Made by a program: the position numbers and the translations under genes | Part shown: positions 24,340 to 40,463 of the stretch, one piece after another | Numbering within the stretch: the first letter of the stretch is position 1 | How the letters are laid out: each line of letters starts with the position of its first letter | Sequence record: OR983333.1 | Reading direction: 5' to 3' (one strand) | Source: Escherichia phage 1-6af | Length of the DNA: 64,000 nt | The notes under the pieces: model-generated | What the model was told of the DNA's origin: nothing | The model's database searches: none | The model's input: only the letters and a program-made list of their open reading frames with translations

Positions 24340-24342
24340 AAC

Positions 24343-24618: not shown

Positions 24619-24619
24619 G

Positions 24620-24877: not shown

Positions 24878-24910
24878 AATTATTACCTAAGAAGTTTAAT
24901 TTGGTTTATA

Positions 24911-24940
24911 TAAAAGAAAAGGCCACCCAAGTGGGCAGCC
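24911..24940 (-). terminator. intrinsic terminator
   Basis: GGCTGCCCA-ctt-GGGTGGCC hairpin followed by TTTTCTTTT on minus; near-identical to the terminator at 25157. Confidence 0.5.
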
Positions 24941-24958
24941 TATTGTACTAGAACTGGA

Positions 24959-25144
24959 TTACTCTTCGATGACATTTAATAACAACTTCTGACGGACAAC
25001 TCTTCTCACATATCTATGCTCTTTTTTAATACCGAGAGCACGCTGTCGAACTGAACGCCTGTTTTTGTATTTGTCACACGGATATTTGTCATGACCGGGG
25101 CAGCAATTTCCAGGGTTGATAAAATTGATAATTTCTCTCTTCAT
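24959..25144 (-). CDS. small basic Cys-rich protein
   Basis: 61-aa ORF with CCPGH...C motif, flanked by two near-identical terminators. Confidence 0.4.
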   Translation of the reverse strand: MKREIINFINPGNCCPGHDKYPCDKYKNRRSVRQRALGIKKEHRYVRRVVRQKLLLNVIEE

Positions 25145-25156
25145 CTAATTGCCCTT

Positions 25157-25185
25157 TAATGAAAAGGCCACCCATTTGGGTAGCC
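25157..25185 (-). terminator. intrinsic terminator
   Basis: GGCTACCCA-aat-GGGTGGCC hairpin followed by TTTTCATT on minus. Confidence 0.5.
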
Positions 25186-25190
25186 TCATG

Positions 25191-25508
25191 TTATGATGAG
25201 CTTAAAGCTCCTTTGCGTGCTCCAGCTGCTTTTCCAGCTCGATCACCACTTTTGCCGCCGTTTGAACGGTTTGAGCTGACTGATTCAACACGTAAGTTGC
25301 TTGACGCATTAGAACCTCCAGACTTGACAGCTCGTTTGTGTCCAACGTCTTTACCTCTGACAGCAGCTTTTCCATCGCGCTTTTCAACGATGCGACGTGC
25401 ACGGTGGCGCTGAGCATCTCCGCTCTTGCTCCCAATTCCCGTTTCACCGCGCTTGATCGCAGTCCTTCTTTCTTGTGCATAATCTCTTTTTCCTACATGA
25501 TCTGCCAT
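25191..25508 (-). CDS. basic low-complexity protein (frame uncertain)
   Basis: ATG overlaps the HNH stop (TAATG) with AGGAGA RBS; an alternative overlapping frame 25202..25480 encodes a helical protein. Confidence 0.3.
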   Translation of the reverse strand: MADHVGKRDYAQERRTAIKRGETGIGSKSGDAQRHRARRIVEKRDGKAAVRGKDVGHKRAVKSGGSNASSNLRVESVSSNRSNGGKSGDRAGKAAGARKGALSSS

Positions 25509-25837
25509 TAGATTTCTCCTGATTCTCTTTGATTAAAGGTGTGGATGGCGTGGCAATTAGCACACAATATCCTGCACTTCCTCATCTCTTCTTTTACTTG
25601 AGATAAAGATCTGGTGTGCCCTTTGGAGAGTTCGAATGACTTAGTTAATGGATTTAAATGATCAAACTGAAGAGCAGATGCGTGGCCCTTAAAGCCACAC
25701 TCAGAGCATCCATAGAATGTTTTAACTCTACGAATAAAAGCTAGTTGCCTAACTCTTCTTCTCTCGTTATCTGCCTTTCTCTTATCTCTATTTCCTGGGT
25801 CGGCCCATCTACACGAGTCATTGCAAAACCTCTGCAT
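25508..25837 (-). CDS. HNH homing endonuclease
   Basis: CSECG ... FDHLNP ... CANCH zinc/HNH motifs. Confidence 0.65.
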   Translation of the reverse strand: MQRFCNDSCRWADPGNRDKRKADNERRRVRQLAFIRRVKTFYGCSECGFKGHASALQFDHLNPLTKSFELSKGHTRSLSQVKEEMRKCRILCANCHAIHTFNQRESGEI

Positions 25838-25952
25838 TATATACTTCGTTACAAATGGTACCTTACAGGTTTCACATTCCTTGTGGTAGGTTGCTATTTG
25901 GACCTCCTACTCAGTGTAAATAAAACCCTCTTCTATCATTGACTTTTGAGTA

Positions 25953-26132
25953 CTAATCACTCCACCCTCCCGGTGGTTCAAAATTTTCTTGAACATCCAG
26001 AACCTCTACATCATCACTCAGGTAGGTACTCTTGCCAAAACCTAAAAGCCAGCGAGCTTTATCAATATCTTTATAAAAATTAAGAGCTGCACTACCATCA
26101 TAACACTCACGAACTATAATACCGATTTTCAT
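25953..26132 (-). CDS. hypothetical small protein (59 aa)
   Basis: Below ORF-track cutoff; start overlaps the PhoH stop (TAATG); hand translation. Confidence 0.3.
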   Translation of the reverse strand: MKIGIIVRECYDGSAALNFYKDIDKARWLLGFGKSTYLSDDVEVLDVQENFEPPGGWSD

Positions 26133-26872
26133 TAACTGTTTACCTTTTCCATTGCTTTAACAATCGCCTTACAGAAACCAGAACGAACAATATCATCTGA
26201 CTCACCGTCTACAATCTCAGCGAACTCATACAGATCATGTTCATCAATAAAATTAGTAGCCCAAGTTAGGCCACTCTCACGACCACGCATATCATGCTGG
26301 TTAGTATCACCCATGCAGAACAGCTGAGAGGTTTCTCCCAATCGAGTCATGATTGAGAAGGCTTCATCTTTAGTGGTGTTCTGGAACTCATCAACAATAA
26401 CAATAGCATCATTGAAAGAACGACCACGGAGATATTCCAGAGGTACAAATTCAATGTTACCATTTCCGATTTGGCATTCATAGAATCCCTTACCGTATCG
26501 CTGAGTAATAACATCAATGATAGGCATCAGGTAGGGTTCAAACTTCTCGCGCATTCCTCCCGGAAGTAACCCAAGAGAGTTACCCATGCCGACCGAAGGG
26601 CGACTCAGAATGATCTTCTGAATCTTACCGCTTTTCAGTGCATCAATAACCGTGGAAGTGATTACAAAGGTCTTACCACAGCCCGCAGGAGCATCTGTGA
26701 ACACAACTTGTTTAGTCTTGATAGCATTGAGTAGCTCAGACTGAAACTGGTTCTGAGGGACTACAGGCTTTGCTAAAACCACCTCTTCATACTCTCGCTT
26801 ACCTTTACGAGTAACAAGTGCTTCTCGACGAAGGTCTTTCCGTGATTCTTTCCGTGATTGACGACGACTCAT
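26132..26872 (-). CDS. phoH: PhoH-like ATPase
   Basis: Walker A APAGCGKTF and PhoH-like architecture. Confidence 0.75.
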   Translation of the reverse strand: MSRRQSRKESRKDLRREALVTRKGKREYEEVVLAKPVVPQNQFQSELLNAIKTKQVVFTDAPAGCGKTFVITSTVIDALKSGKIQKIILSRPSVGMGNSLGLLPGGMREKFEPYLMPIIDVITQRYGKGFYECQIGNGNIEFVPLEYLRGRSFNDAIVIVDEFQNTTKDEAFSIMTRLGETSQLFCMGDTNQHDMRGRESGLTWATNFIDEHDLYEFAEIVDGESDDIVRSGFCKAIVKAMEKVNS

Positions 26873-27054
26873 TTACGCTCTCCAATTTCTTCGTAATGAC
26901 ACTCAGTAGTTAAGCAGTCTTTACAGATTGCTGTATAAACCCTGACGTTAGTAAATCGTTTGTTCTTCCCTTTGGTTGGAGAGCCTTTGGCAAGCTCTCT
27001 GATAACCTTGTTACTTAAATGAAGGTTTGTTCCTTCACATTTAGAGCACTTCAT
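26869..27054 (-). CDS. zinc-ribbon protein
   Basis: CSKCEG ... CKDC Cys pairs. Confidence 0.4.
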   Translation of the reverse strand: MKCSKCEGTNLHLSNKVIRELAKGSPTKGKNKRFTNVRVYTAICKDCLTTECHYEEIGERK

Positions 27055-27062
27055 TGTTTACC

Positions 27063-27308
27063 TCAGAAATTATAAGGGTCATAATCAAGAGAATCAAACC
27101 CATAATCTGAGCTATTAAGGTATCGGCGCTTTAATCCGAAATCTTCGTAGTGAGGTTTTCCAGGAACAGTTTTGCCTTTGGTTATGTTCGTTACTTGACT
27201 AGAAGAGAAAAGGTGAACCCCTTCAGAAGTCCTAGCAGAAGATTTTTCTCCTTTCTTAACCACTTTTCCTTTTTTGGCCCATCCTTCGAATGTTCTATAT
27301 TGCATCAA
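27063..27308 (-). CDS. hypothetical protein
   Basis: 81-aa ORF; operon context. Confidence 0.35.
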   Translation of the reverse strand: MMQYRTFEGWAKKGKVVKKGEKSSARTSEGVHLFSSSQVTNITKGKTVPGKPHYEDFGLKRRYLNSSDYGFDSLDYDPYNF

Positions 27309-27314
27309 AACTCC

Positions 27315-27515
27315 TTACCACAATGTCCATTCAGTAAGGGACCACAGAGAGTCCCCTATGTGGGTGTTGTCATGTCGGATGAGATCTTTGATTTTATCAA
27401 CATCAGTCAAGTGAGTTACATTCAAGATATCCTCAACATCTGGAACATGTTTGAATATGGCAACAATGTTATTACCATCATCAGAAAACTCCTCAAGCAC
27501 ATAAACTACACTCAT
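27315..27515 (-). CDS. hypothetical protein
   Basis: 66-aa acidic ORF; operon context. Confidence 0.35.
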   Translation of the reverse strand: MSVVYVLEEFSDDGNNIVAIFKHVPDVEDILNVTHLTDVDKIKDLIRHDNTHIGDSLWSLTEWTLW

Positions 27516-27835
27516 GCGACATTAGCCTCTTTATGAAGTCTATAAATAGCTGTCGCCATGCAAGCAACAGCCTCGTTGTGTGGGAGGTGCATCCCTGTAG
27601 AACCATCCCAATCTTTGAACTCACTGTCAAAGACTCCGGTAGGCTCTGGATACAGAGCTTGCAGCTCCACTAGATCGTTAGCAACTTGTTGCCATTTATC
27701 GTCAGACCAGATAGGGTCATCCAACCAGTAATACAAATAGGAATGGATGATCAATTGCCTTCTGTGCCGATTAATTACTTCAGCGGGACTTATCTCACTT
27801 CCATTTGAAGTCCTAAATGTATTACTGTCAATCAT
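27512..27835 (-). CDS. hypothetical protein
   Basis: 107-aa ORF; start/stop overlap with neighbours. Confidence 0.35.
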   Translation of the reverse strand: MIDSNTFRTSNGSEISPAEVINRHRRQLIIHSYLYYWLDDPIWSDDKWQQVANDLVELQALYPEPTGVFDSEFKDWDGSTGMHLPHNEAVACMATAIYRLHKEANVA

Positions 27836-28038
27836 TACGAAAATTCCCGTTCTGTTAAAGAGTGCTGAACTTCATTATCCGGAGACCAAACCTTTTCTCC
27901 ATTTACCAATTTCTTAGCATCTTCATCTGAAGCACAATCTAAAGCAGGATTATCAGGTGTTGGCTTCTTTGGAAATCTTTTCCAAGTCCAAAAATATCCG
28001 TCATCGTCTTGGCAACCAAGAGTCCACAAAGTTTTCAT
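27835..28038 (-). CDS. hypothetical protein
   Basis: 67-aa ORF; operon context. Confidence 0.35.
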   Translation of the reverse strand: MKTLWTLGCQDDDGYFWTWKRFPKKPTPDNPALDCASDEDAKKLVNGEKVWSPDNEVQHSLTEREFS

Positions 28039-28053
28039 TTCACAACCTTAAAT

Positions 28054-28296
28054 TTAAATGTTGTTGGGTGAGAATAATTCCACACAGTCAAGCATGTAGT
28101 AGGAGTAACCAAAGGGTTTGGCTGTTAAGTTGGAAACCATTTTATCAAAAAGGGATTGAGAAACATCCTCTTCTACTCCAACATCCTCAAGCTGCTGCTT
28201 TGTAGGATAGTCAGTGAAAGAGCAAAGAATTTCTGTATCCTCTCCTCTGTCTGCATCCTCAACACGACTCAGAATCCAAATATTCTTCCTAACCAT
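28054..28296 (-). CDS. hypothetical protein
   Basis: 80-aa ORF; operon context. Confidence 0.35.
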   Translation of the reverse strand: MVRKNIWILSRVEDADRGEDTEILCSFTDYPTKQQLEDVGVEEDVSQSLFDKMVSNLTAKPFGYSYYMLDCVELFSPNNI

Positions 28297-28297
28297 T

Positions 28298-28954
28298 TTA
28301 ATTCTCCAAAGTTTTCTTCAGAGCTGCCCACGAGATTGGGTAGAGCTTAGCCATCTCTTCATCTACGGATTTAGCAAACACTCGAACTTCATATTGAGCG
28401 TGAGAGGATAGTCGCTGACGGCACAACTCAAACCAGCCATACAAAGAACCAGTCCACACCCACTCAGTGATCATCCCCTGAGGAAGAACAAATCGAGCTT
28501 GCTCTGGTGCAATAAATTCAATCAACTTATCATATGCTGCTAAAGAAGCTTCATATGCATCATTAATCAACATTAATGCTTCAGCTCGCTCTCCGTCGAT
28601 GAGTTGAATCCCTGAACCTGCATGGAGGTCCGAAGGTCTCGCAAAAATCTCTTTAGGGATGAAGACTTCAACTGCTCCATCTTTATACCGCCGGGACATT
28701 TCGTTCCACGAGAATCCAACCTGATGCTTTCCCAGCTGTCTCGCAATTGCGATAGGTGCTTTGCATCGGAAACTGACTTGCGGGTGTCGGAATGGAGTAC
28801 AGTGTTTTTCCCGTGCAAGGAAGTTGATAAGTTTTGTGTCTCTCTCATTTAAGTCACCTTCTCGAACAACACCGAAAGATACTCTAGCTGCATTGACTAC
28901 AGATTTGTCACTTCCCATAGCTTCGATTAATGTTGCTTGTAGTTGTTCATTCAT
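28298..28954 (-). CDS. thyX: flavin-dependent thymidylate synthase ThyX
   Basis: Matches ThyX along its length by eye: AARVSF, HCTPF.H...F.CKAPIAIARQ, SRRY, SHAQYEVR. Confidence 0.9.
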   Translation of the reverse strand: MNEQLQATLIEAMGSDKSVVNAARVSFGVVREGDLNERDTKLINFLAREKHCTPFRHPQVSFRCKAPIAIARQLGKHQVGFSWNEMSRRYKDGAVEVFIPKEIFARPSDLHAGSGIQLIDGERAEALMLINDAYEASLAAYDKLIEFIAPEQARFVLPQGMITEWVWTGSLYGWFELCRQRLSSHAQYEVRVFAKSVDEEMAKLYPISWAALKKTLEN

Positions 28955-28969
28955 CCGTGAATATCCTTA

Positions 28970-29245
28970 TTATTTATTGCTCAGGGCTGTATCCAAAAAA
29001 GCTTTCAGGTTTGCTTCAGTCTGCATACCAGAGAGGCTGTAGTGTGCACCACTGTTACGGTCAGGCACAACGAAAGCAGGGATGCTTCGTACACCATACT
29101 TAACAGCTTGCTCACGACCATCACCTTCAAGGATGTTAATCTCTTCCACTTCTACATCAAACTCCTTAACAACCTTCTCAAAGGTAGGAGCCATTGCTTT
29201 ACATGGAGCACACTGATCACTATAAAACTTAATTACTTTAGACAT
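28970..29245 (-). CDS. thioredoxin/glutaredoxin-like protein
   Basis: CAPC redox motif in a thioredoxin-fold-sized protein with cis-Pro-type IPAF segment. Confidence 0.65.
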   Translation of the reverse strand: MSKVIKFYSDQCAPCKAMAPTFEKVVKEFDVEVEEINILEGDGREQAVKYGVRSIPAFVVPDRNSGAHYSLSGMQTEANLKAFLDTALSNK

Positions 29246-29253
29246 GTAAATCC

Positions 29254-29433
29254 TTATGCAGTCAGGAGGTGAAGCAGGAATGGGATAACAACAGCTATGA
29301 TAACCATGATGGTTGATGCTGTTTGAATCTCACCTTTCTTATCAGGGGTTTCTTCAATAAGCTTCCCAGAAGCCCAATAAATACCACCACCAATAAAGAT
29401 AGCCCAAATACCCCATACGATTGCTGATAACAT
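29254..29433 (-). CDS. small membrane protein (2 TM helices, 59 aa)
   Basis: Below cutoff; ATG 29433 with AAGGA RBS; hand translation; the ORF-track frame 29295..29567 is probably a shadow. Confidence 0.35.
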   Translation of the reverse strand: MLSAIVWGIWAIFIGGGIYWASGKLIEETPDKKGEIQTASTIMVIIAVVIPFLLHLLTA

Positions 29434-29493
29434 ATATCTATATCCTTATAAATAAGTTCGCCCCACCTCGGGTTAGGAGACAGGGCGGAGGTT

Positions 29494-30057
29494 TTAGTAA
29501 GACACATCACCACTTGAATGGGACATGTTGCTCTTGACGAAGTAGCAATACTTGCCAAGACCTTCATTAATTTCTTGAAGCATACTCTGATCGACAGGGT
29601 AGGTGGCTAAATCACCATCAAACTCATCCATCTTCTCAATAATACACATCAAGGTCATGCACATATCAGAGAGCATACCGTCCATGTCTAGATCAGCATT
29701 ACCCTCTGAGAACCAAGCATGAGAGAGGTAGTTAGCTGCTGTAGCATCCACTTTAACACAGTGGTAACGCATACGTTCAGCAATACGATCTCCTACCTGT
29801 CGTGCGTAATCTTCCAGCTCATCAAACATACCATGAACACCTTGAAATCCTGCACCAGAGACGTTCCAGTGGTAGTTTTTAGCTTTGATATGCAAGAGTT
29901 CCATGTTAGCTTGTAAGCAGCTCAGGATGTGTTCTAGGCTGTTTCCACTAATCATACCCTGCATTGTTTCAAGGCGAGAGATTGATAGGTCGGACCGGTC
30001 TAACATGCTATAACTGTCACGACCGATCTCAGGTAAATCAAAAACATTCTTATGCAT
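29494..30057 (-). CDS. Dps-like ferritin-fold protein
   Basis: Dps signature region HIKAKNYHWNVSGAGFQGVHGMFDE...IAER; start at Met 30057 with GGAG RBS (ORF track extends to 30096). Confidence 0.6.
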   Translation of the reverse strand: MHKNVFDLPEIGRDSYSMLDRSDLSISRLETMQGMISGNSLEHILSCLQANMELLHIKAKNYHWNVSGAGFQGVHGMFDELEDYARQVGDRIAERMRYHCVKVDATAANYLSHAWFSEGNADLDMDGMLSDMCMTLMCIIEKMDEFDGDLATYPVDQSMLQEINEGLGKYCYFVKSNMSHSSGDVSY

Positions 30058-30379
30058 TTGGGTTTTCTCCATCCAGTTCAACTGAGTTAGCAACATTACG
30101 TGCGATATTATCCATTACCTGCTGAGTAATTACGATGCAGTTCTGTGGGTCTACTGACTTAGAACGCCCCATTTCAGGGTCATACACCTTAACTCGCTTA
30201 GCAGTTGAACCTGTAACCTGAAGAACCTTCAACAGATATCCCTGATTACCAATAGACCAAGCAACAACATCACGATTCTTGATAAAGCGACCAAGCATAT
30301 CACGATGATAAAACTGTTGCATCACCTTGGATTTTGTAATCTCTTCAGTGGGCGGGGCCACTTTACTCAAATCTAACAT
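30050..30379 (-). CDS. hypothetical protein
   Basis: 109-aa ORF; operon context. Confidence 0.35.
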   Translation of the reverse strand: MLDLSKVAPPTEEITKSKVMQQFYHRDMLGRFIKNRDVVAWSIGNQGYLLKVLQVTGSTAKRVKVYDPEMGRSKSVDPQNCIVITQQVMDNIARNVANSVELDGENPNA

Positions 30380-30451
30380 AACTCTCTCCTGTAAAATACA
30401 AATTCTTGTTGTACTCTATATACATTTGAGAGTTACCATATCTACTACCAA

Positions 30452-30661
30452 TCAGTAATAAATTACTTTAGACATAAAAGAACCCGAGTTAGGGTCTTCG
30501 TACCAGCGATGAATGTCAGCACTTTTAACTGTTCCAATTAAAGTTTTCATCTTCTTCTTAGCAATACGAGCATCTTTACGGGTGTCAAATAATTTGATAT
30601 TATCTTTACCTAGATGGTGTCCATCTTCCCAAACAACACGAACAGCCCATATCTTTTTCAT
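30452..30661 (-). CDS. hypothetical protein (tandem paralog)
   Basis: Shares MxxxWxxxxxW start and xYY/HY end with 30661..30855. Confidence 0.4.
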   Translation of the reverse strand: MKKIWAVRVVWEDGHHLGKDNIKLFDTRKDARIAKKKMKTLIGTVKSADIHRWYEDPNSGSFMSKVIYY

Positions 30662-30855
30662 TAGTAATGTACCTTTCCGCTGATATAAACACGACCAGAG
30701 GAATACTCTCTGGCCTTATGAATGCTAATACTCTTAGTTAAGTCCATATTGAACATAGACTTTTTAAACTCTCGAGCTTGTTGGCGGGTAGGTAGTGCAG
30801 TCATAGTCATACCACCTGATGCCCACTTAATCTTCGCTAACCAGAATTGTCTCAT
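30661..30855 (-). CDS. hypothetical protein (tandem paralog)
   Basis: Paralog of 30452..30661. Confidence 0.4.
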   Translation of the reverse strand: MRQFWLAKIKWASGGMTMTALPTRQQAREFKKSMFNMDLTKSISIHKAREYSSGRVYISGKVHY

Positions 30856-30908
30856 TTATCTTTCATCCACATTAAAGGAGAGATGAAGTCTACTTCTCAT
30901 AGACTTCG

Positions 30909-31379
30909 CTAGGAGTTTTGCCTCTTCAAGAGTTTTACTCCATACACAGACTCACGTTTACCATCTTTTTGAACAGATACACAGAACGTCCCGCCCTTCT
31001 CTTGGTAGACATTCTTAACTCCTAGCTTGTTATCAACCCTTGTCTTAGCATTCTGACTGTTCTCAGAGTGAGAGCACTTTCTCAGGTTAGTTTCTTCTAG
31101 GTTTTCTCTGTTACCATCGGCATGATCTATTTGATATTCATCCGATAAATCCTCACCAGTATAAAGAACAAAAAGAATCCTATGATTATGGACACGAACT
31201 CCTCCTAAGGGAATTTGATAATACCCATCTTTTGTGAGCTTGCCATCAGGTTTACCTACTATATCATTAGCAAACTTACTAGGCTTCCTTTTCCAAGAAA
31301 GCCCTGAAGGGGATGACATGTCTATATTAAAGAGATCAACTACTTCATCATAGCATATCAGCATGATTTGTTCCACCAA
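30909..31379 (-). CDS. HNH homing endonuclease
   Basis: HNH motif YQIDHADGNRENL...N. Confidence 0.65.
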   Translation of the reverse strand: MVEQIMLICYDEVVDLFNIDMSSPSGLSWKRKPSKFANDIVGKPDGKLTKDGYYQIPLGGVRVHNHRILFVLYTGEDLSDEYQIDHADGNRENLEETNLRKCSHSENSQNAKTRVDNKLGVKNVYQEKGGTFCVSVQKDGKRESVYGVKLLKRQNS

Positions 31380-31902
31380 AAGCTTTTGTTGGCCCTTGTT
31401 GGTTATTGTATGAACCTTTAGTTGCGTAGCTATCCTCTTCCGAGGATGAGTGTTTAAAGAATTCCATCTGACCGATACGCATTCCCGGCTTGATCAGCAG
31501 AGAGTGGTGCTGTAGGACGTTCTTGAATTCCATAGTTAACTGACTGCCATGCCAACCACCGTCAGCATGACCAGCGTGCATGTGCTCTAAGAAGCAACGA
31601 CCGACAGTAGATCGTAGCATGAAGTCACAGCTAATGTTGTCTGGAAGGTTGAATGTCTCCACTGTATGAGCTAAGAAACACTCACCCGGTTTGATCACCA
31701 ACCCTTCCTCTGGAATCATAACCTCATTGAAATTAGGGGATTCTTTAGCAGAGATATCAACAACCCCATTAGCTGCACCTTCCATCAGAACACGATCTCC
31801 AATACGAACATCAATGCTGGAGGAATTAACAGCTGAGTGTGGTGCATCAATAACACCATCATCAATTAATTTATGTAACTCTGGGCTTCCTAGTAAACTC
31901 AT
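31348..31902 (-). CDS. dcd: dCTP deaminase
   Basis: Length about 184 aa and C-terminal KGSYNNQQG resemble bacterial Dcd. Confidence 0.7.
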   Translation of the reverse strand: MSLLGSPELHKLIDDGVIDAPHSAVNSSSIDVRIGDRVLMEGAANGVVDISAKESPNFNEVMIPEEGLVIKPGECFLAHTVETFNLPDNISCDFMLRSTVGRCFLEHMHAGHADGGWHGSQLTMEFKNVLQHHSLLIKPGMRIGQMEFFKHSSSEEDSYATKGSYNNQQGPTKAFGGTNHADML

Positions 31903-31911
31903 TCTTATTCC

Positions 31912-33225
31912 TTAGTTATTTGTTTCCATGTCAAAAGAGATTCCACGACCCGCTTCATCGGCAAACCGAACTGTACGGGTTTGAGGTTCTAATACTTCAG
32001 GGTTGTTGGCAATAAAGCGATCAGCGAGATTATCTACCACATCTTGGGCCACACCTTCATCAGTCCACACAGCCCTAACAGGTGCGTTGATATCACCAAC
32101 AGCAAAACCCTGACCAGAGAACTGGTGACGGCTAACAGTCAAGCCGTTTGATCGACCACGAGAAGGACTAGACATCCATTGCTCCATAGAATCACTTGTA
32201 ATACCAAGAGCTTCTTCAAAAGATGTTCTACGAGAAGAGCTTAGATTTCGTGCTTCATTTGCTCGACGTCTTGTAGGGGCTACAAACACCCCTTCAATTG
32301 CATTGTGTCGGTTAGGTTCGTCTTCTCTACCAAGCAGATCACCACCTGTATTAGTTGTTAAATTTGTCAACCCTTCAGACCAATACGCATGAATCTGACC
32401 GGAACCGTGAAGACTAGACATAATCTGAATCTCTTCATAAGGGATTCCAAAAAATCGACTCATGTCTCGGTTAACACAATATAGAGCACTTGTTGTATCC
32501 TCAATAAGAGCAACCTGACCTATTTCATTAACAAGATGACTGACTGGCTGAGGTGTAGGAAGGTATCGAGTTTGGGCCATATATTGATATGCAACAGATG
32601 GGGCTGAGAATCTTAACACTTGTGAATTAGGCCACTTTTTGTGAACGTATCTGATTTCACGACTAGAAACAACCACAGGGCAAGGGGCGGTCATAGCTAA
32701 ATACCCATGAGGGGTCATGAATAAGTTGTCAAGAGTCATCGCACCACGGCACATCATAGGAAAGTTATCCAATACCTCTTCGATAGAAGTAGGATAATTA
32801 AACATGAATTGGATACGAACCCCATTCCACTGAAACTCAATAATATCAGTGAATGTTAATTGAGAACCCCCAGCATAGGATTCGTTTGTAGCTTCAGCAA
32901 GAAGAGATGAATACTCAATATCTTGAGACTCAAGCCACTCTTTAACGTTACTTTCAACTTCTCGTCCGAGATCTTGCCACTGCTCATGACGGATGAAAGT
33001 ATTTCGAGTTCTTGGGGCCTGTCCTCTGACAATAAAGATATCAATGTCATGCGGAGCTGTGTTATTAAGCACAGCATCACGAATAGCCCCACCAGTGATG
33101 ATAGGACAAATACAGTCTGGAATCAAGTTGTTGTTAATCAGCTGTTCAATGAAGTGACGACCAACAGTGATATCCGGTTGTTGAGCAACCTTATCTTCAA
33201 TTCGGTTAATCGGGATAACAATCAT
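31912..33225 (-). CDS. Pol-beta-superfamily nucleotidyltransferase (CCA-adding enzyme / poly(A) polymerase-like head)
   Basis: GGAIRDAVL...DIDIFI NTase motif; Ser/Arg-rich C-terminal half; ATG 33225 overlaps upstream stop. Confidence 0.5.
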   Translation of the reverse strand: MIVIPINRIEDKVAQQPDITVGRHFIEQLINNNLIPDCICPIITGGAIRDAVLNNTAPHDIDIFIVRGQAPRTRNTFIRHEQWQDLGREVESNVKEWLESQDIEYSSLLAEATNESYAGGSQLTFTDIIEFQWNGVRIQFMFNYPTSIEEVLDNFPMMCRGAMTLDNLFMTPHGYLAMTAPCPVVVSSREIRYVHKKWPNSQVLRFSAPSVAYQYMAQTRYLPTPQPVSHLVNEIGQVALIEDTTSALYCVNRDMSRFFGIPYEEIQIMSSLHGSGQIHAYWSEGLTNLTTNTGGDLLGREDEPNRHNAIEGVFVAPTRRRANEARNLSSSRRTSFEEALGITSDSMEQWMSSPSRGRSNGLTVSRHQFSGQGFAVGDINAPVRAVWTDEGVAQDVVDNLADRFIANNPEVLEPQTRTVRFADEAGRGISFDMETNN

Positions 33226-33226
33226 T

Positions 33227-33784
33227 TTACATTTTCCAATATAATGAAGGTGGGTCGTAAGGGTCAAATCCTGTGATTTCACACAAGAAAAGATAAACCT
33301 TAACAGTTAAGTTAACGTCCTGTTCACAATAAGTAAACATATCTTCAGTGAAAGCATCCCATGCTTCCTCTTGCTCACCATAATCGCCCTTAAGTTCTCC
33401 TAAGAACTCACCCCACTGCTTCAAACCATGACCCCTTGGGCCACGTCTAGGGTCGCCTTTCGGATACTCAGGACTGTCACCAATACGGTCAGGTTTAAGA
33501 TATCGACTAAGACATAAAGTGTCAAAGACGTTAAAATTATATTTAATCAAAGAGGGATACATCTTCTTCAGAGCAGGTAAGTCGAAGTCAATAATATTAT
33601 GACCCACGAGCACATCTGCTTCTGTCAGTTTACGAATCCCGTCTTCGATTTGGTGAGGCCGATAGCCCCACCTTTCACCAGTTTCAACATCGAAGATATA
33701 AATACACCATACTTTAGTTATGTCATCGTACAGTGCATTACTCTCGATATCGAATGCAAACACTTTCTTCTTTTTCTTTACCAC
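33227..33784 (-). CDS. 3'-5' exonuclease (family-A polymerase exo domain encoded as a separate gene)
   Basis: Exo I FDIESNAL, Exo [14 protein letters not shown], Exo III-like YCEQDV, matching the T7 polymerase N-terminus. Confidence 0.8.
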
Positions 33785-35568
33785 GGTGAAGCTCCATCTG
33801 CTTGGTTGACGAGAGAAGCTGCATCCTCTCCATTAGTTAAAACGAATGGATTATCTTCATCAACTTCAAAGTCTTCCCTCTCTACAAGTCTACCGGTTTC
33901 ACTGATATACTTAGTATAACAGACACCTGTCTGACCGTAGTTGCGTTCTTTCAGTAATCGAATGACTGAGAGGTTCTTAGCTAAGCCGTCAGCTTGCTTG
34001 TCACGCTCAAAACCAATGATACACTGACACCAACGCATAAGAGAACGAGAGCCAGTGAACTGCACTTCACGTACCTGTCCACCTTCTTCATGAGGAGCAC
34101 CACCTGCCGGAGCATTAAGGTGAGATAACACGAAAGCGGTAAAGTCTAGTTCTTTACACATACCAGCAAGCTCGGAAGCAATCTTACTGATTTCAGTGTT
34201 AATCTCTGAAGGGGTTAAATGAGACACCAGAGCGGTAATGTTATCAAGGATGATGAACTTACACTGGTTTTCAACTACCCAGAAACGAATACACTGTTTA
34301 ATGTCTTCCCACTCATTCTGTCCGAAGTTGTCATACAAGAAGAATTTGTCTGCATAACGAAGTGCTTCATTACGCAAATCCTCCTCATCATATTCAACAT
34401 CGGGTCGGTGGAAAGGAATTGATGCTGACTTACCAGCAATGTTCTTAACAGACATGCCTACCTTCTCTTCCAAGAAGAAGCCACCTCCATTAAAACCATG
34501 CTCTAAGCACAGATGAGCAACCAGCTCGTGAGCAATGAGTGTTTTACCACTACCAACCCCACCACCAATTGCTACCACCTCTCCCCATCGAATACCGAAG
34601 GTCATCTCATTCAGAGTCTTCCACGGATATGGGATACCCCACTCCGCTTTCTTCAGAGCATCATCAAGGCAATCAAAGATTGTTACAGCTCCAGCAGGAG
34701 ATTCCCGCTTTGCTGAATACTTGAGAATGTTGAATAACTCTTGACCACGACCAGACAGAAGCATATCATTCGCATCCTTAATCTCTTTCTCCACACCGTT
34801 GTATGGGAAGGTTCCTTTAGGGATACGAGCAAACTTGACATGAGGGAATAAAGAACGACCTTTTGTTAAAGCTATCTCACCTGCATCATCGTTGTCCATG
34901 CAGAGCACAACCTCCTCAAAACCATTTACGAAGTCTCGATTACGAGACAACACAGAAGAGATTGAACCTGCACCGAACGGTAAAGAAACACAGGCTGGTT
35001 TAATGTTTGTTGCATTTGTAAAAGCTGTAAGGACATGGAAACCAGACATACAAGATAGCGGGTCTTCAAAAATGAAGAGCTTCTTGTTGTACACATCTCC
35101 ACGTTGAGCTTGTGCCATACCAAATAAATCTGCTTCTTTCACACTGCCGACATAATAAAACTTCTTATTATCTAGCAGCTTAACCTCGTAACCAACAATG
35201 TTTCCATCACGTTCGCGAGGAAAGAAGTAGCTGTCTGGAGTCTGACCGTCAGTTTGACTGAGGCCAATACGACACTCAAAACGCTCTGATACAGCTTTTG
35301 GGATTAAACGTCGAGTAAGCTCTCCCTGAGGAAGCTCTAAGCAATCATCTAAGACTTCTCTCAACTCTTCAGGGGATAACTCTTTTCTCTCGTTTGGAGT
35401 AGGTGTAGTGCCCTTTTCGAACACTTCGTAATTCCCACAACGGTTACAACTTCCCCACTCCTCACCTGTCTCTTCGTTACGGAAGAGAATCATGTGGTTG
35501 TGGGTTTTATCACGACCATGAGAGATACATTCCTTACAACCTGTGTCTCCCAAAATGATCTTTGACAT
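33778..35568 (-). CDS. DNA primase-helicase (T7 gp4-like)
   Basis: N-terminal zinc ribbon, [16 protein letters not shown], helicase Walker [10 protein letters not shown] and Walker B IILDNI. Confidence 0.85.
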
Positions 35569-35594
35569 GCTCTTCCTCCTTGGAATCCTTGAGC

Positions 35595-35798
35595 TTAGTA
35601 GAACGAACGAATTTCATCCCACACTTGTTCCTGTTCTTTCCTATAAAAAGAAAGTTGGGTCTTGAACATCTCCACTGATGATTCAAAGTTTTTGGTTTGT
35701 GCAGCTTCAACGAAACGTTCATGTCGGTTGATTTTGCACCGTAGCATTAAATACTTGGCTTCAAGTCTCCGAAGAGCCTGCCTTTTCTCAAGATTCAC
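35595..35798 (-). CDS. hypothetical protein
   Basis: 67-aa helical ORF; a second overlapping frame 35534..35722 exists. Confidence 0.3.
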   Translation of the reverse strand: MNLEKRQALRRLEAKYLMLRCKINRHERFVEAAQTKNFESSVEMFKTQLSFYRKEQEQVWDEIRSFY

Positions 35799-36207
35799 TT
35801 TTCAGATACTCTGACCAGTCGCCAGATTCAACCAGAACGTCTTGTTCTTCGTCGATGTGATAAATCCAAGCGATAACAGTTTCACCTGAGTCCATCTTAA
35901 CAGCAATCTGAGTACGCTGATAGAAGCTGTCTTCAGGGCTATGTTTGTTGTAACCTTCCAGACGGTCATACGGACCTTCCAGACCTGCTTTGTCAGTAGC
36001 AAACACTTCTACACGAACAGGCTTATTATTATTGCTGTGTGTGAGAGAGATGCTTGGGAAGTAGGAACCACCATAACGGAACAGATCGAAGTTGTCTTCA
36101 GTCCAACCTTCACCAATTGACTTAGCACCAGCTCGGTCATTAACTAAATAGTTAGCTTGACCACGACGAAGAGAACCATAAGTTGCTACGTAAATTACTT
36201 CTGACAT
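35788..36207 (-). CDS. GGCT/AIG2-like (gamma-glutamyl cyclotransferase fold) protein
   Basis: N-terminal YGSLRRG and ...AWIY pattern of the AIG2/GGCT family. Confidence 0.65.
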   Translation of the reverse strand: MSEVIYVATYGSLRRGQANYLVNDRAGAKSIGEGWTEDNFDLFRYGGSYFPSISLTHSNNNKPVRVEVFATDKAGLEGPYDRLEGYNKHSPEDSFYQRTQIAVKMDSGETVIAWIYHIDEEQDVLVESGDWSEYLKSES

Positions 36208-36276
36208 TATCTATACCTTTGTTGGTTTGTTTAGTTTATCCGAACTAGCCTCCTCTTTCGAAGAGGCTAAAGCAGA

Positions 36277-36462
36277 TTACTCTGTAATAAAGATTTTGAT
36301 TACGCCACAGATCGCTGCACTTTCAAACACTGCAATAGCTTCACTTCCTTGAAAGAAGGCCACTTTGCCATCAGTGAAGTTAAACATATCAGCATCGAGG
36401 TCCATAGCTCGCATTTCACCAGCTGCATTGGTATCTTTAAACAGAACTTTATACTTATTCAC
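36277..36462 (-). CDS. hypothetical protein
   Basis: 61-aa ORF inside the ligase operon. Confidence 0.35.
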   Translation of the reverse strand: MNKYKVLFKDTNAAGEMRAMDLDADMFNFTDGKVAFFQGSEAIAVFESAAICGVIKIFITE

Positions 36463-36707
36463 AGATAGGTCACTCCTTTGTCTTGTTGTGCTTCAGTGAT
36501 GATACGTTCTACACATTCCATAGAATACTTATCACCACGTTTCAGGAAAGTTACAATTGCAGAGAATTGATTACCAATCATTCGCTGATTAGTAATACCC
36601 CACTCCTCACACAATTTACGCAACTCTTTACGAGAGCCTACAATAAGAGGCTCTTTTTGTTCTATCATTCCATTTTGTACTAGATCTTCCAATGAAAACA
36701 TATCCAT
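36459..36707 (-). CDS. hypothetical protein
   Basis: 82-aa ORF; start/stop overlap. Confidence 0.35.
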   Translation of the reverse strand: MDMFSLEDLVQNGMIEQKEPLIVGSRKELRKLCEEWGITNQRMIGNQFSAIVTFLKRGDKYSMECVERIITEAQQDKGVTYL

Positions 36708-36713
36708 ATATCC

Positions 36714-37910
36714 TTAGTAGTTTACAACAGTGCCATCATTCAGGGTAATGCTATTAATCTGCAACACACGACCAAGCTGACGATCACTAATTGGAGCATT
36801 CCAGCCAGAGCGGTAGAAGTTACGACCGCAGAAGAAAACAATTACGTTACTTGCTACAGTTGAACCGTTTTCAGGATGCTTGATGTTAGCGATGTAATAA
36901 CCACGACGCAGATTACGACGGGTGATCGGGGTGATCTCTAACCCTTGCTCTTCAACTTGCATCGTTTCAGGAACAGGTTCCGAAGATTCTTCAGCAACTG
37001 GCTCAGCTGTTAATGCAAAGTTCTCATCATCTGCTGATTCAGCAAATTCTTCTTCCGCTTCTTCAACAGGCAGTTGGTAAGCAACACGATAGTCAGGTTC
37101 AACACCAGAGAAGCTCTTAACAAACTCAACGATATTGTGAGTGTAAGTCTCCAGAGTTGTACCAGTCAGTCCCGGAGCTGTATTTACTTCCAGAACCCAA
37201 GCGTTATTCCCTTTACTAATCAGATCAACAGCACCGAAGTTTAAGCCCAGAGCAGATACAGCTTTGTGAGCTTGAATCAGAACTTGATCAGGAGGAGCTT
37301 CAGTGAATGCGTTAGAATAAACCCAACCAGTGTGATGGTTACGAATATCTTCACGGTAGCTTTCCAGTTCACGATATCCATTACGACGAATCTTCTTCTG
37401 AACGTAAGTGATAACACCTTCAAACACATGAACACGCCATTCACGACGTGGGCCTTGAATACCTTTCGTATACAGAGGAGCACTTGCAACACCTTCTCCC
37501 GGAAGACGAACGGTGATACCTTCACCAGAGTGACCAGTTAAGGTTGCACGTTCATAAACAATTTCGGTTCGGTTCCAGTTCAGAGCTAATTCGTGATCGA
37601 TAGTGTATTCAACAGTCTTAACTTCAGCCAAACGCAATGCGTTGAACGCTGCAATCTTGTTAGCCGCTCGGTTCAGAGCTTCAACAGGGTTCAATACGGT
37701 TGCACCACCAAAGAAAGAAGCATCATAACGGCGGTTGCCATAGTTTACAACAATATCACCAGCTCGAGAACGATAACGAGAGCCTTCTGATACCAAAGAC
37801 ATTACGTTAGCATTTAAGCGGAGTTCCTGAATCTTAGTATTAATTGCAGAAGTAAGTTCACGAACTGAATCGGAAGGGCCATAAGGAAGAACACGGATAC
37901 GAGTAGTCAT
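36714..37910 (-). CDS. RimK-like ATP-grasp ligase
   Basis: ATP-grasp motifs EWRVHVFEG and FGAVDLI...WVLEVNTAPGL; acidic linker and C-terminal extra domain. Confidence 0.75.
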   Translation of the reverse strand: MTTRIRVLPYGPSDSVRELTSAINTKIQELRLNANVMSLVSEGSRYRSRAGDIVVNYGNRRYDASFFGGATVLNPVEALNRAANKIAAFNALRLAEVKTVEYTIDHELALNWNRTEIVYERATLTGHSGEGITVRLPGEGVASAPLYTKGIQGPRREWRVHVFEGVITYVQKKIRRNGYRELESYREDIRNHHTGWVYSNAFTEAPPDQVLIQAHKAVSALGLNFGAVDLISKGNNAWVLEVNTAPGLTGTTLETYTHNIVEFVKSFSGVEPDYRVAYQLPVEEAEEEFAESADDENFALTAEPVAEESSEPVPETMQVEEQGLEITPITRRNLRRGYYIANIKHPENGSTVASNVIVFFCGRNFYRSGWNAPISDRQLGRVLQINSITLNDGTVVNY

Positions 37911-37912
37911 TG

Positions 37913-38137
37913 TTAGATACCTTTAAGTTTAAGAATTTCGTTACGAGTTTTTTGAATCTGAGCTTCAATTTCGAAGTAGTCGTTGAACGCATCGTTCTCT
38001 ACTTCATCGGATGGTGCATCAATCAGACCGAAAGCGAACGGATACAGCTTTCGCTGCTCCGTTACTAATTCGATATGAACTCCCATATAATACTGTAGGA
38101 GAGTGATCTTTGGTTTCTTAGGAACCAGATTTGACAT
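37913..38137 (-). CDS. hypothetical protein
   Basis: 74-aa ORF in the ligase operon. Confidence 0.35.
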   Translation of the reverse strand: MSNLVPKKPKITLLQYYMGVHIELVTEQRKLYPFAFGLIDAPSDEVENDAFNDYFEIEAQIQKTRNEILKLKGI

Positions 38138-38351
38138 GAGGTTCTACCTTAATGCCTTTGATTTTTACATAATCAGCAAGCACGTTGTTGATCACCGTTG
38201 GGAAAGGAACCTCAACCTGTGTTTCAAGTACTTGACCAATACCAGCTTGCATCCACTTTTGGATTGCACGAAGGTTATCACATCCTGTGCTCGTCATCGG
38301 GATACGTCGAGTAGTTACAACGTTATCCAGCATCATCTTACGAATTTCCAT
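38118..38351 (-). CDS. hypothetical protein
   Basis: 77-aa ORF in the ligase operon. Confidence 0.35.
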   Translation of the reverse strand: MEIRKMMLDNVVTTRRIPMTSTGCDNLRAIQKWMQAGIGQVLETQVEVPFPTVINNVLADYVKIKGIKVEPHVKSGS

Positions 38352-38353
38352 AC

Positions 38354-40384: not shown

Positions 40385-40463
40385 TTTCTAATCCACCTGA
40401 AGGGTAAACCCTTTCATCTAATTAACCTTTAAATTGTGCCCCTTTGTCAGAGGCACCCATTGA

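What the first reader, a model, noticed from the sequence alone, without database searches (positions are those of the whole stretch)
31912..33225. Pol-beta-type nucleotidyltransferase resembling a CCA-adding enzyme head domain
The GGAIRDAVL...DIDIFI motif is typical of class-II tRNA nucleotidyltransferases and poly(A) polymerases. Together with the tRNA-like elements this suggests tRNA repair or maturation, perhaps against host anticodon nucleases. A CD-NTase-like signalling or anti-defence enzyme is an alternative. The C-terminal half is Ser/Arg-rich and disordered.
Basis: partly seen in the sequence, partly recalled or inferred. Interest (0 to 1): 0.5.

Follow-up and report, generated by a model that had tools for sequence, protein, structure and literature searches.

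The report
Phage CCA-enzyme-like minimal nucleotidyltransferase
This is the conserved, functionally untested nucleotidyltransferase gene of phiEco32-like (Kuravirus) coliphages: its catalytic head looks like that of tRNA CCA-adding enzymes, but it lacks what those enzymes need to read nucleotides and bind tRNA, and it sits in the DNA-replication operon, so it is probably not a tRNA repair enzyme.

Summary
A 437-aa ORF (31912..33225, minus strand) carries ITGGAIRDAVLNNTAPHDIDIFIV, and its C-terminal third is Ser/Arg/Gly-rich and predicted disordered. The window is Escherichia phage FH3 (Kuravirus). The gene is the phiEco32 gp73 orthologue, already annotated 'nucleotidyltransferase' (phrog_12715) and called a 'class II CCA-adding enzyme domain' for phage SU10 in 2014.

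[quoted passage not shown] It fails the membership test for a CCA-adding enzyme:
- Motifs B (RRD) and D (EDxxR) are absent.
- There is no body/tail tRNA-binding domain.
- An invariant Gln sits where the third catalytic carboxylate is expected.

The family is tiny (31 clusters among 1.84 billion representatives) and is always placed primase/helicase, Pol A exonuclease subunit, NTase, dCTP deaminase. Its nearest relatives are an untested NTase family next to DNA polymerase in Autographiviridae (hhalign 95%) and, more weakly, Gad2, the anti-Gabija NTase-like protein (61%; same invariant Gln).

The tRNA link is weak: phiEco32's tRNA-Arg encodes its own CCA, and phiAS7, which carries a related NTase, has no tRNA.

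My best reading is a replication-linked, possibly counter-defence nucleotidyl transferase of unknown substrate. Interest is moderate.

The parts
31912..33225 (-). Complete NTase gene (437 aa plus stop); orthologue of phiEco32 gp73
   Evidence: phrog_12715, E=1.9e-248; 89.7% aa identity to phiEco32 YP_001671818.1
32356..33225 (-). Confidently folded part, aa 1-290: the NTase head plus a family-specific alpha/beta subdomain. The core conserved across the family is aa 1 to about 215 (32581..33225).
   Evidence: AF2 pLDDT >90 over most of aa 1-290; conservation
33028..33099 (-). Motif A, ITGGAIRDAVLNNTAPHDIDIFIV. Holds the GG turn, R49-D50 and the catalytic D60 and D62.
   Evidence: aligned to GGAVRD...DxD of CCA-adding enzymes
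32788..32853 (-). Beta-hairpin, aa 125-146. Holds the always-acidic position 127 (D/E) and the invariant Q139 (codon 32809..32811). Q139 occupies the column of the invariant Asp of phrog_1614 and the invariant Gln of Gad2.
32746..32763 (-). FPMMCR segment (aa 155-160), aligned with the motif-B-like FDxxxN of phrog_1614 and FDFT of Gad2. The Asp is replaced by the invariant P156, and there is no RRD.
32629..32661 (-). Conserved helix R189-[D/E]190-x-x-Y193-x-x-K-K197-x-P199. A candidate nucleotide- or substrate-contacting element; it is not an EDxxR template.
32044..32355 (-). Disordered Ser/Arg/Gly-rich linker (aa 291-394). Variable in length and sequence, and absent from the shortest family members.
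31912..32043 (-). Acidic C-terminal segment (aa 395-437, net charge -5), modelled at low confidence as a helix followed by a hairpin
33227..33784 (-). Upstream gene: stand-alone 3'-5' exonuclease subunit of the split family A DNA polymerase. Its stop codon lies one base before the NTase ATG.
31348..31902 (-). Downstream gene: dCTP deaminase

Best explanation
What it is (well supported): a divergent, head-domain-only offshoot of the class II (CCA-adding enzyme / poly(A) polymerase) branch of Pol-beta nucleotidyltransferases.
- It belongs to a phage-restricted group that also holds the Pol A-adjacent NTases of Autographiviridae (phrog_1614) and, more distantly, Gad2.
- It is a core gene of Gordonclarkvirinae. 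Its ATG follows the stop codon of the Pol A exonuclease subunit gene by one base, which suggests co-translation (inferred), and dCTP deaminase lies downstream.

How it most likely works (inferred): it is catalytically active. D60 and D62 would bind the metals, with Q139 and/or D/E127 in place of the usual third carboxylate. It would transfer a nucleotidyl group from an NTP or dNTP to a hydroxyl acceptor.
- It lacks the RRD ribose sensor, the EDxxR base template and the tRNA-binding body/tail, so it is not a CCA-adding enzyme.
- I think the acceptor is most likely tied to phage DNA replication or its protection from host nucleases: a DNA or primer 3' end, a nucleotide, or a protein.
- In that case the protein acts as a replication-linked counter-defence enzyme in the manner of Gad2, and the disordered, acidic tail tethers it to a partner.

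Substrate and product are unknown.
For: Fold and catalytic motif:
- Motif A is invariant.

Not a CCA enzyme:
- No RRD or EDxxR in 26 of 26 members at homologous positions. In the human CCA-adding enzyme, the D and R of EDxxR could not be replaced in an in vivo selection screen (PMC11784652).
- Only about 290 folded residues, then disorder.

Replication linkage:
- The gene order primase/helicase, exonuclease subunit, NTase, dCTP deaminase is kept in phiEco32, in Bas89 (38% identity) and in a metagenomic relative at 28% identity.
- The stop and start codons abut.
- The homologous phrog_1614 gene (hhalign 95%, E=3.4e-8) lies next to, or within two small genes of, DNA polymerase A in five Autographiviridae. 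Its position varies between upstream and downstream.

Counter-defence link:
- Precomputed Pfam assigns PF26128 'Gad2' (weak) to most close family members.
- hhalign against a 30-sequence Gad2 alignment gives Prob 61%, E=8.2e-5 over 111 columns. Invariant Q139 pairs with invariant Gad2 Q88.
- The two AF2 models show the same order of secondary-structure elements.
- Gad2 is a genetically validated anti-Gabija protein with a predicted NTase domain. Its mechanism is still unknown.
- phrog_1614 is accessory and host-biased: 37 of 46 Pectobacterium Autographiviridae against 60 of more than 500 others (PMC7693777).
- Gordonclarkvirinae are unusually resistant to RM systems. Humolli et al. single out this NTase together with Dcd (PMC11990801).
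Against: - No biochemical or genetic data exist for this family.
- The Gad2 link is weak: HMM-to-sequence scores are about 16-20 bits and hhalign gives only 61%. It could reflect nothing more than a shared class II-like head.
- Gad2 lacks the R-D of GGxxRD and has a different, ordered C-terminal domain.
- A strictly core, syntenic gene is atypical for an anti-defence function.
- Adjacency to Pol A within Autographiviridae may be inherited gene order in a compact DNA-metabolism module.
- The nearest solved structures all act on RNA 3' ends.
- Placing Q139 at the third-carboxylate position rests on alignments, and on my recollection that this residue is E79 in the Geobacillus enzyme. I could not do a 3D superposition.
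Confidence: 0.4

Rival explanations
1. RNA 3'-end tailing enzyme. Either a minimal tRNA CCA-adding/repair enzyme or a poly(A)/oligo-nucleotide polymerase acting on host or phage RNA, with the Arg/Ser-rich disordered tail supplying RNA binding.
For: - All top structural neighbours add nucleotides to tRNA or RNA 3' ends.
- Motif A matches GGAVRD...DxD of E. coli Cca.
- Database annotations of homologues say 'class II CCA-adding enzyme'.
- Most Kuraviruses carry a tRNA-Arg(UCU) (PMC9965538).
- This window carries a tRNA-like element without an encoded CCA.
- From my own knowledge: E. coli PAP I also uses a basic, disordered C-terminus for RNA binding.
Against: - Motifs B and D are absent. D and R of motif D could not be replaced in a selection screen on the human CCA-adding enzyme.
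- There is no body/tail domain.
- The third-carboxylate column holds Gln.
- phiEco32's tRNA-Arg encodes its own CCA, and the E. coli host has its own Cca.
- phiAS7 has a related NTase but no tRNA.
- The tRNA-like variant occurs in only 3 phage records.
- The tail is not net basic: net -1 over aa 291-394 and -5 at the end.
Confidence: 0.25
2. DNA-modification enzyme. Together with dCTP deaminase (and perhaps the nearby amidoligase/GATase/ATP-grasp cluster) it installs or activates a covalent base modification that protects the genome from restriction, as Humolli et al. suggested.
For: [quoted passage not shown] The authors point to Dcd plus this NTase.
- The gene abuts dcd.
- The window has 32 EcoRV and 7 EcoRI sites, so site loss alone would not explain resistance to those enzymes, if they were among those tested.
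- The RRD ribose sensor is lost.
Against: - Palindrome and Dcm-site avoidance is strong: 14 six-base palindromes are absent and CCWGG occurs 9 times against 71 expected. This is typical of DNA that restriction enzymes can still read.
- The phage has ThyX and Dcd, an ordinary dTTP supply route.
- I know of no precedent for a Pol-beta NTase in base hypermodification.
- Homologues occur in Autographiviridae for which no DNA modification was mentioned in the annotations or the paper read here.
Confidence: 0.08
3. CD-NTase-like enzyme that makes or mimics a nucleotide second messenger, or otherwise depletes a nucleotide pool.
For: - It has the Pol-beta NTase fold.
- Phage NTases that make competing cyclic nucleotides to inhibit STING effectors have been described (preprint 10.1101/2025.06.06.658234).
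Against: - CD-NTases rank below all class II enzymes.
- There is no PADLOC or NCBIfam hit.
- The GGxxRD motif is a class II signature, not a CD-NTase one (from my own knowledge).
Confidence: 0.05
4. Largely non-catalytic replisome accessory protein that keeps an NTase fold, for example a scaffold bound through its acidic tail.
For: - Gln replaces the third carboxylate and Pro replaces the motif-B Asp.
- The gene start abuts the stop of the exonuclease subunit gene.
- The C-terminus is acidic.
Against: G45, G46, R49, D50, D60 and D62 are invariant across members of about 21-34% identity, which argues for a maintained active site.
Confidence: 0.1

Closest known systems
Class II tRNA nucleotidyltransferases and bacterial poly(A) polymerase I (Pfam PolyA_pol head domain; PDB 1miv, 3aql, 3h37, 1ou5, 4wby)
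   Same: - Same motif A, GGxxRD...DxD.
- Same strand/helix order through the catalytic hairpin.
   Different: - No motif B (RRD) and no motif D (EDxxR); motifs C and E are not detectable.
- No body or tail domain.
- A roughly 20-residue helical insert follows the DxD strand.
- An invariant Gln occupies the third-carboxylate column.
- A disordered tail replaces the tRNA-binding domains.
- The Pfam score is below the gathering threshold.
phrog_1614: the 'putative nucleotidyltransferase / CCA-nucleotidyltransferase' of Autographiviridae (phiAS7 gp03, PP47 gp28, and others). Described but not tested (Evseev et al. 2020, PMC7693777).
   Same: - Homologous: hhalign Prob 95%, E=3.4e-8 over about 100 columns; Foldseek E=2.7e-6.
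- Phage-only, head-only NTase.
- Encoded beside the family A DNA polymerase genes.
   Different: - phrog_1614 proteins are about 180-205 aa with no disordered tail.
- They keep an invariant Asp in the third-carboxylate column (D134) and a motif-B-like FDxxxN (D151, N155). The Kuravirus family has Q139 and P156 there.
- phrog_1614 is accessory and host-biased, not core.
Gad2 (Gabija anti-defence 2; Pfam PF26128; Bacillus phage SPbetaL7, WIT28108.1)
   Same: - Precomputed weak Pfam Gad2 hits on most Kuravirus members.
- hhalign Prob 61%, E=8.2e-5 over 111 columns.
- GG...DxD, and the same invariant Gln on the second hairpin strand (Q139 / Q88).
- Same order of secondary-structure elements in the AF2 models.
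   Different: - Gad2 has GG(T/A)ITS instead of GGAVRD.
- It keeps the motif-B-like Asp (FD106FT).
- It has a conserved, ordered C-terminal domain.
- It sits in a variable anti-defence locus of temperate SPbeta phages, not in a replication operon.
- The similarity is weak: about 16-20 bits HMM to sequence.
CD-NTases (CdnE, DncV) and other Pol-beta NTases (TENT5, TUTases, Pol X)
   Different: Lower structural scores than every class II enzyme, no sequence-level hit and no PADLOC hit.

Membership tests
Pol-beta nucleotidyltransferase superfamily | alpha-beta-alpha-beta core with a G[GS] turn and a DxD (or DxE) metal-binding pair on the next strand | tested here: met
   [not shown]
Pol-beta nucleotidyltransferase superfamily | Third catalytic carboxylate on a neighbouring strand | tested here: inconclusive
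   The column that holds the invariant D134 in phrog_1614 holds the invariant Q139 here and Q88 in Gad2. An always-acidic residue (D/E127) lies on the paired strand. No coordinates were available to check the geometry.
Class II CCA-adding enzymes / poly(A) polymerases | Motif A, GGxVRD...DxD, in the head domain | tested here: met
   GGAIRD...DID aligns with E. coli Cca GGAVRD...DRD and with 6ibp.
Class II CCA-adding enzymes / poly(A) polymerases | Pfam PolyA_pol (PF01743) at or above the gathering score | tested here: not met
   19.1 bits against a cutoff of 23, and only profile positions 3-77 of 126 are matched. 18 of 26 members hit, the best at E=2.5e-4.
Class II CCA-adding enzymes / poly(A) polymerases | Motif B (RRD; contacts the NTP ribose) | tested here: not met
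   No RRD at a homologous position in 26 of 26 members. The aligned segment is F-P156-x-M with an invariant Pro. E. coli Cca has RRDLTINALA.
Class II CCA-adding enzymes / poly(A) polymerases | Motif D (EDxxR; the amino-acid template for CTP and ATP) | tested here: not met
   No conserved EDxxR: a single, non-homologous occurrence in 26 sequences. The nearest conserved helix reads R-[D/E]-x-x-Y-x-x-K-K. D and R of EDxxR could not be replaced in an in vivo selection screen on the human enzyme (PMC11784652).
Class II CCA-adding enzymes / poly(A) polymerases | Neck, body and tail helical domains that bind the tRNA or RNA | tested here: not met
   [not shown]
Class II CCA-adding enzymes / poly(A) polymerases | CCA or poly(A) addition to RNA 3' ends | not testable with these tools
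   Needs an enzyme assay.
phrog_12715 (Gordonclarkvirinae nucleotidyltransferase; phiEco32 gp73 orthologues) | Full-length match to the family profile, and conserved position between the Pol A exonuclease subunit and dCTP deaminase | tested here: met
   E=1.9e-248 over aa 1-437. 89.7% identity to phiEco32 gp73. Synteny.
Gad2 (PF26128) | Significant match to the Gad2 family profile | tested here: inconclusive
   The precomputed hits are flagged 'weak'. The local Pfam copy lacks the model. hhalign gives Prob 61%, E=8.2e-5. HMM-to-sequence scores are 16-20 bits.
Gad2 (PF26128) | Conserved Gad2 C-terminal domain (aa about 240-400) | tested here: not met
   The alignment covers only Gad2 residues 15-128. 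The tail here is disordered and unrelated.
Gad2 (PF26128) | Inhibition of Gabija defence | not testable with these tools
   Needs co-expression and phage knockout experiments. Gabija is not mentioned in the BASEL paper.
CD-NTases | cGAS/DncV-like fold and sequence signature | tested here: not met
   [not shown]

The most novel reading that the evidence does not exclude
The Kuravirus NTase, the Pol A-adjacent NTases of Autographiviridae and Gad2 form one phage-specific clade of class II-derived 'head-only' nucleotidyltransferases. Their shared job would be to nucleotidylate DNA ends, replication intermediates or a nucleotide cofactor, so that nuclease-based defences that sense DNA ends or nucleotide levels (Gabija-like, possibly also restriction systems) fail to act. 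In Gordonclarkvirinae this counter-defence enzyme would have become a fixed, replisome-coupled core gene. That would help explain their unusual resistance to host immunity and would also point to a mechanism for Gad2.
Probability: 0.2. Interest if true: 0.7.

Novelty: new variant of a known kind. Interest (0 to 1): 0.4.

Why it matters
The gene is catalogued ('nucleotidyltransferase', 'CCA-adding enzyme domain') but has never been tested, and the tRNA label is probably misleading.

It is a core gene of a common, therapeutically used group of E. coli phages. Their resistance to restriction is unexplained, and this very gene was singled out as a suspect (PMC11990801).

Two links make it experimentally tractable:
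- a widespread family of NTases encoded next to Pol A in T7-like phages;
- more tentatively, Gad2, whose mechanism against Gabija is still unknown.

Bas86-93 infect an E. coli K-12 derivative with restored O16 O-antigen. One set of assays and knockouts could therefore assign a function to three uncharacterised phage NTase families at once.

If it turns out to be an ordinary RNA-tailing enzyme, the result mainly corrects an annotation.

Tried and rejected
- CCA-adding enzyme membership: rejected. Motifs B and D and the body/tail are absent.
- Maturation of the phage's own tRNA: rejected as the main role. phiEco32's tRNA-Arg encodes CCA. ARAGORN finds no tRNA in the window or in phiAS7. The tRNA-like element occurs in only 3 phage records.
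- CD-NTase: considered, but not supported.
- Longer GTG start at 33282: rejected. It overlaps the exonuclease gene, and all homologues start at the ATG.
- Fusion with the exonuclease or another partner in relatives (Rosetta-stone evidence): none seen. All 31 clusters match from residue about 1, and the longest protein is 482 aa.

Dead ends:
- The afdb50 fold library was not available.
- The local Pfam copy lacks PF26128, so the Gad2 hit could not be rescored.
- phmmer against the PDB gave nothing meaningful.
- hhalign against a single E. coli Cca sequence aligned only motif A.
- The Gad2 profile finds nothing in the PDB.
- Three papers were not held: PMC3275717, PMC11115931 and the Emajogi preprint.
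- No model coordinates are returned by the tools. The positions of Q139, D127 and Y193 relative to a bound NTP could therefore not be checked by superposition.
Full report
**1. Observation**

The minus strand carries one long ORF, 31912..33282, from a GTG.
- The ATG at 33225 gives the 437-aa protein of the finding. All 26 aligned relatives start at this Met.
- The ATG lies one base after the TAA stop of the upstream gene (TAAAATG), so the reported coordinates are right.
- The motif reads ITGGAIRDAVLNNTAPHDIDIFIV (aa 43-66, window 33028..33099).
- The tail is disordered in the AF2 model: pLDDT <50 for aa 292-394.
- Aa 291-394 contain R 11.5%, S 11.5% and G 10.6%. The last 43 residues are acidic, net -5.

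**2. Source of the window and annotation status**

The region is 100% identical to Escherichia phage FH3 (OR886155.1) and about 95% identical to phiEco32, SU10, ES17 and other Kuravirus phages of the Gordonclarkvirinae.
- The protein is the orthologue of phiEco32 gp73 (89.7% aa identity), which RefSeq names 'nucleotidyltransferase'.
- It matches phrog_12715 over its full length at E=1.9e-248.
[quoted passage not shown] One peptide was detected in a crude SU10 preparation.
I found no functional study.

**3. The family**

An exhaustive phmmer search of 1.84 billion cluster representatives returns only 31 clusters at E<1e-3, and none is a canonical CCA-adding enzyme.
- In an alignment of 26 members (A1; 21-34% identity to the query apart from one close homologue), the conserved core is aa 1 to about 215.
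- Invariant residues are G45, G46, R49, D50, D60, D62, F64, Y117, I128, Q139, P156, Y193 and K197. Positions 127 and 190 are always acidic.
- Everything after about aa 290 varies in length and sequence, and is missing from the 274-320-aa members.
- AF2 on this alignment gives a confident model for aa 1-290 (mostly pLDDT >90). The order of elements is helix, beta1, GG, helix, beta2 (DxD), long helix (80-100), a hairpin (125-133 and 136-146), then a small alpha/beta subdomain.

**4. What it resembles**

- The top 37 Foldseek hits are all class II tRNA nucleotidyltransferases.
- At sequence level the similarity is confined to motif A. Pfam PolyA_pol scores 19.1 bits, below the cutoff of 23. The family profile finds 6ibp at E=0.003. 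hhalign to E. coli Cca aligns only residues around GGAVRD...DxD.
- NCBIfam and PADLOC give nothing.

**5. It is not a CCA-adding enzyme by the defining motifs**

Class II enzymes have catalytic-core motifs A to E. The D and R of motif D (EDxxR) form the nucleotide template, and no substitutions at them were recovered in an in vivo selection screen on the human enzyme (PMC11784652). E. coli Cca shows RRDLTINALA (motif B) and FGEDPLRVLRVARF (motif D).
- None of the 26 family members has RRD or EDxxR at a homologous position.
- The segment aligned with motif B is F-P156-M-M, with an invariant Pro.
- The only conserved helix downstream reads R-[D/E]-x-x-Y-x-x-K-K.
- There is no body or tail domain.
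- In the hairpin's second strand, the related phrog_1614 family has an invariant Asp (D134). From memory, the Geobacillus enzyme has E79, its third catalytic carboxylate, at this position. This family has an invariant Gln (Q139) there. Whether D/E127 on the paired strand substitutes for it could not be checked without coordinates.
- The strict conservation of GG, RD and DxD argues that the active site is still in use.

**6. The tRNA argument**

- ARAGORN finds no tRNA in the window.
- Rfam finds one borderline tRNA-like element at 49436..49514(-): 29.7 bits against a cutoff of 29. It has a T arm and a UCU anticodon loop, no D arm, a 24-nt variable region, no encoded CCA and a 19-bp extended acceptor-like stem.
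- It sits where phiEco32 has a normal tRNA-Arg(UCU), and that tRNA encodes its own CCA.
- The variant element, with an adjacent HNH gene, occurs in only 3 phage records. The NTase is found in 97.
- phiAS7, which carries a homologous NTase, has no tRNA gene at all.
- The NTase therefore does not track phage tRNAs. Repair of host tRNAs damaged by a defence system cannot be excluded, but nothing here points to it.

**7. Genomic context and relatives**

The gene order primase/helicase (33778..35568), Pol A 3'-5' exonuclease subunit (33227..33784), NTase, dCTP deaminase (31348..31902) holds in several genomes:
- phiEco32, O18-011 and Bas89 (38% identity);
- a metagenomic relative at 28% identity.

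Further along the same strand lie ThyX, PhoH and the Pol A catalytic subunit (22179..23900).

The best viral structural match outside the family is phiAS7 gp03, a member of phrog_1614.
- hhalign between the two families gives 95% probability, E=3.4e-8.
- tblastn with phiAS7 gp03 finds matches in 177 phage records, those inspected being Autographiviridae.
- In five genomes I inspected, the gene lies immediately next to, or within two small genes of, the family A DNA polymerase, sometimes upstream and sometimes downstream.
- Evseev et al. called these 'putative CCA-nucleotidyltransferases'. They noted an accessory, host-biased distribution: 37 of 46 Pectobacterium phages against 60 of more than 500 other Autographiviridae. 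They left the function open (PMC7693777).

**8. The Gad2 lead**

The precomputed Pfam annotation of most close family members is PF26128, which is named 'Gad2' and flagged weak.
- Gad2 is the second Gabija anti-defence protein of SPbeta-like phages. It is 400 aa with a predicted NTase domain.
- It was validated genetically: a knockout sensitises SPbetaL7, and a homologue from a Brevibacillus prophage blocks Gabija.
- Its mechanism was still listed as unknown in 2026.

I tested the relationship directly.
- I retrieved Gad2 (OQ921347.1, 109563..110765) and built a 30-sequence family alignment.
- hhalign against A1 gave Prob 61%, E=8.2e-5 over 111 columns (A1 22-175 against Gad2 15-128). Invariant Q139 pairs with invariant Gad2 Q88, and P156 pairs with invariant D106 of a motif-B-like FDFT.
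- An AF2 model of a Gad2 homologue shows the same order of elements, with Q88 on the second hairpin strand.
- HMM-to-sequence scores are low, at 16-20 bits.

The link is real enough to follow but is not proof of shared function. Gad2 lacks the R-D of motif A and has its own ordered C-terminal domain.

**9. The DNA-modification idea**

[quoted passage not shown] They point to the dCTP deaminase and this NTase as possible signs of a covalent modification (PMC11990801).
- Against a general base modification, the window shows strong palindrome avoidance. Fourteen six-base palindromes are absent, and CCWGG occurs 9 times against 71 expected.
- On the other hand it retains 32 EcoRV and 7 EcoRI sites.
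- Dcd plus ThyX is an ordinary dTTP supply route.
- I rate this rival low but not excluded.

**10. Synthesis**

Shown:
- a conserved, probably active Pol-beta NTase head of class II ancestry;
- loss of the class II nucleotide-template and tRNA-binding elements;
- fixed placement in the replication operon;
- homology to NTases encoded beside Pol A in T7-like phages;
- a weak affinity to Gad2.

Inferred: the acceptor is more likely connected with replication or its protection from host nucleases than with tRNA.

My estimates:
- replication-linked / counter-defence transferase, about 0.4;
- RNA or tRNA 3'-end tailing, about 0.25;
- non-catalytic accessory protein, about 0.1;
- DNA modification, about 0.08;
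- CD-NTase-like, about 0.05;
- the remainder is unknown.

**11. Novelty and interest**

The gene and its family are already catalogued, and the CCA-like head was already noted, so the finding as written is not new.

What this analysis adds:
- it fails the CCA-enzyme membership test;
- the third-carboxylate and motif-B positions are substituted;
- it is homologous to phrog_1614;
- it has a tentative bridge to Gad2.

That makes it a new variant of a known kind, with a testable hypothesis. Interest is moderate (0.4).

**12. Limits**

- The tools return no model coordinates, so no active-site superposition was possible.
- The afdb50 library was unavailable.
- The local Pfam copy lacks PF26128.
- The identity of E79 as the third carboxylate in the Geobacillus enzyme rests on my own knowledge, as does the RNA-binding role of PAP I's basic C-terminus.

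Noticed in passing
window 49436..49514 (-), extended stem about 49425..49526: A tRNA-like element sits at the locus where phiEco32 has a normal tRNA-Arg(UCU). It has a T arm, a UCU anticodon loop, no D arm, a 24-nt variable region holding a D-loop-like AATTGGA, no encoded CCA and a 19-bp extended acceptor-like stem. It scores 29.7 bits on Rfam tRNA (cutoff 29) and ARAGORN misses it. It folds at -45 kcal/mol (z=-5.9). It could be a rearranged or degenerate tRNA, or a tRNA-like processing signal.
   Followed up: partly
window 49526..49966 (-): A 146-aa ORF lies immediately upstream of the tRNA-like element and is annotated as an HNH endonuclease in Bas93. The ORF plus the variant tRNA-like element occur together in only 3 phage records. 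In the other Kuraviruses only the downstream lipoprotein-like gene matches. This suggests that a homing-endonuclease insertion remodelled the tRNA locus.
   Followed up: partly
window 30909..31379 (-): An HNH_3 homing endonuclease gene overlaps the 3' end of dCTP deaminase by about 30 nt. It is present in FH3, ES17, EcoN5 and O18-011 but absent from phiEco32, SU10 and Bas90/91, whose alignments begin at query position 887.
   Followed up: partly
whole window (1..64000): Restriction-site avoidance is strong. Fourteen of the 64 six-base palindromes are absent (for example GGATCC, CTGCAG, CCATGG, GCATGC). CCWGG (Dcm) occurs 9 times against 71 expected, and GGCC, GCGC and CCGG are at roughly half of expectation. 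GATATC (32), AAGCTT (33) and CAGCTG (22) are over-represented. This bears on the reported RM resistance of Gordonclarkvirinae.
   Followed up: partly
window 33227..33784 (-) and 22179..23900 (-): The family A DNA polymerase is split. A stand-alone 185-aa 3'-5' exonuclease subunit and the polymerase-domain protein are encoded about 9 kb apart on the same strand, with some 20 genes between them in phiEco32.
   Followed up: partly
window about 36714..45171 (-): The phiEco32-type cluster lies just upstream of the replication genes. It comprises a gene whose phiEco32/O18-011 orthologue is annotated RimK-like / ATP-grasp (no Pfam hit for the window ORF), a glutamine amidotransferase, Amidoligase_2, a COOH-NH2 ligase and (in relatives) a gamma-glutamyl cyclotransferase. 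Its product and target are unknown. It might be connected with the unexplained defence resistance.
   Followed up: no
window about 48596..48719: The window is circularly permuted relative to the GenBank record of FH3. Window 31000 corresponds to record position 60721, and window 49300 to record position 705. About 124 bp at the two record ends appear only once in the window, consistent with a terminal repeat or an assembly overlap.
   Followed up: no
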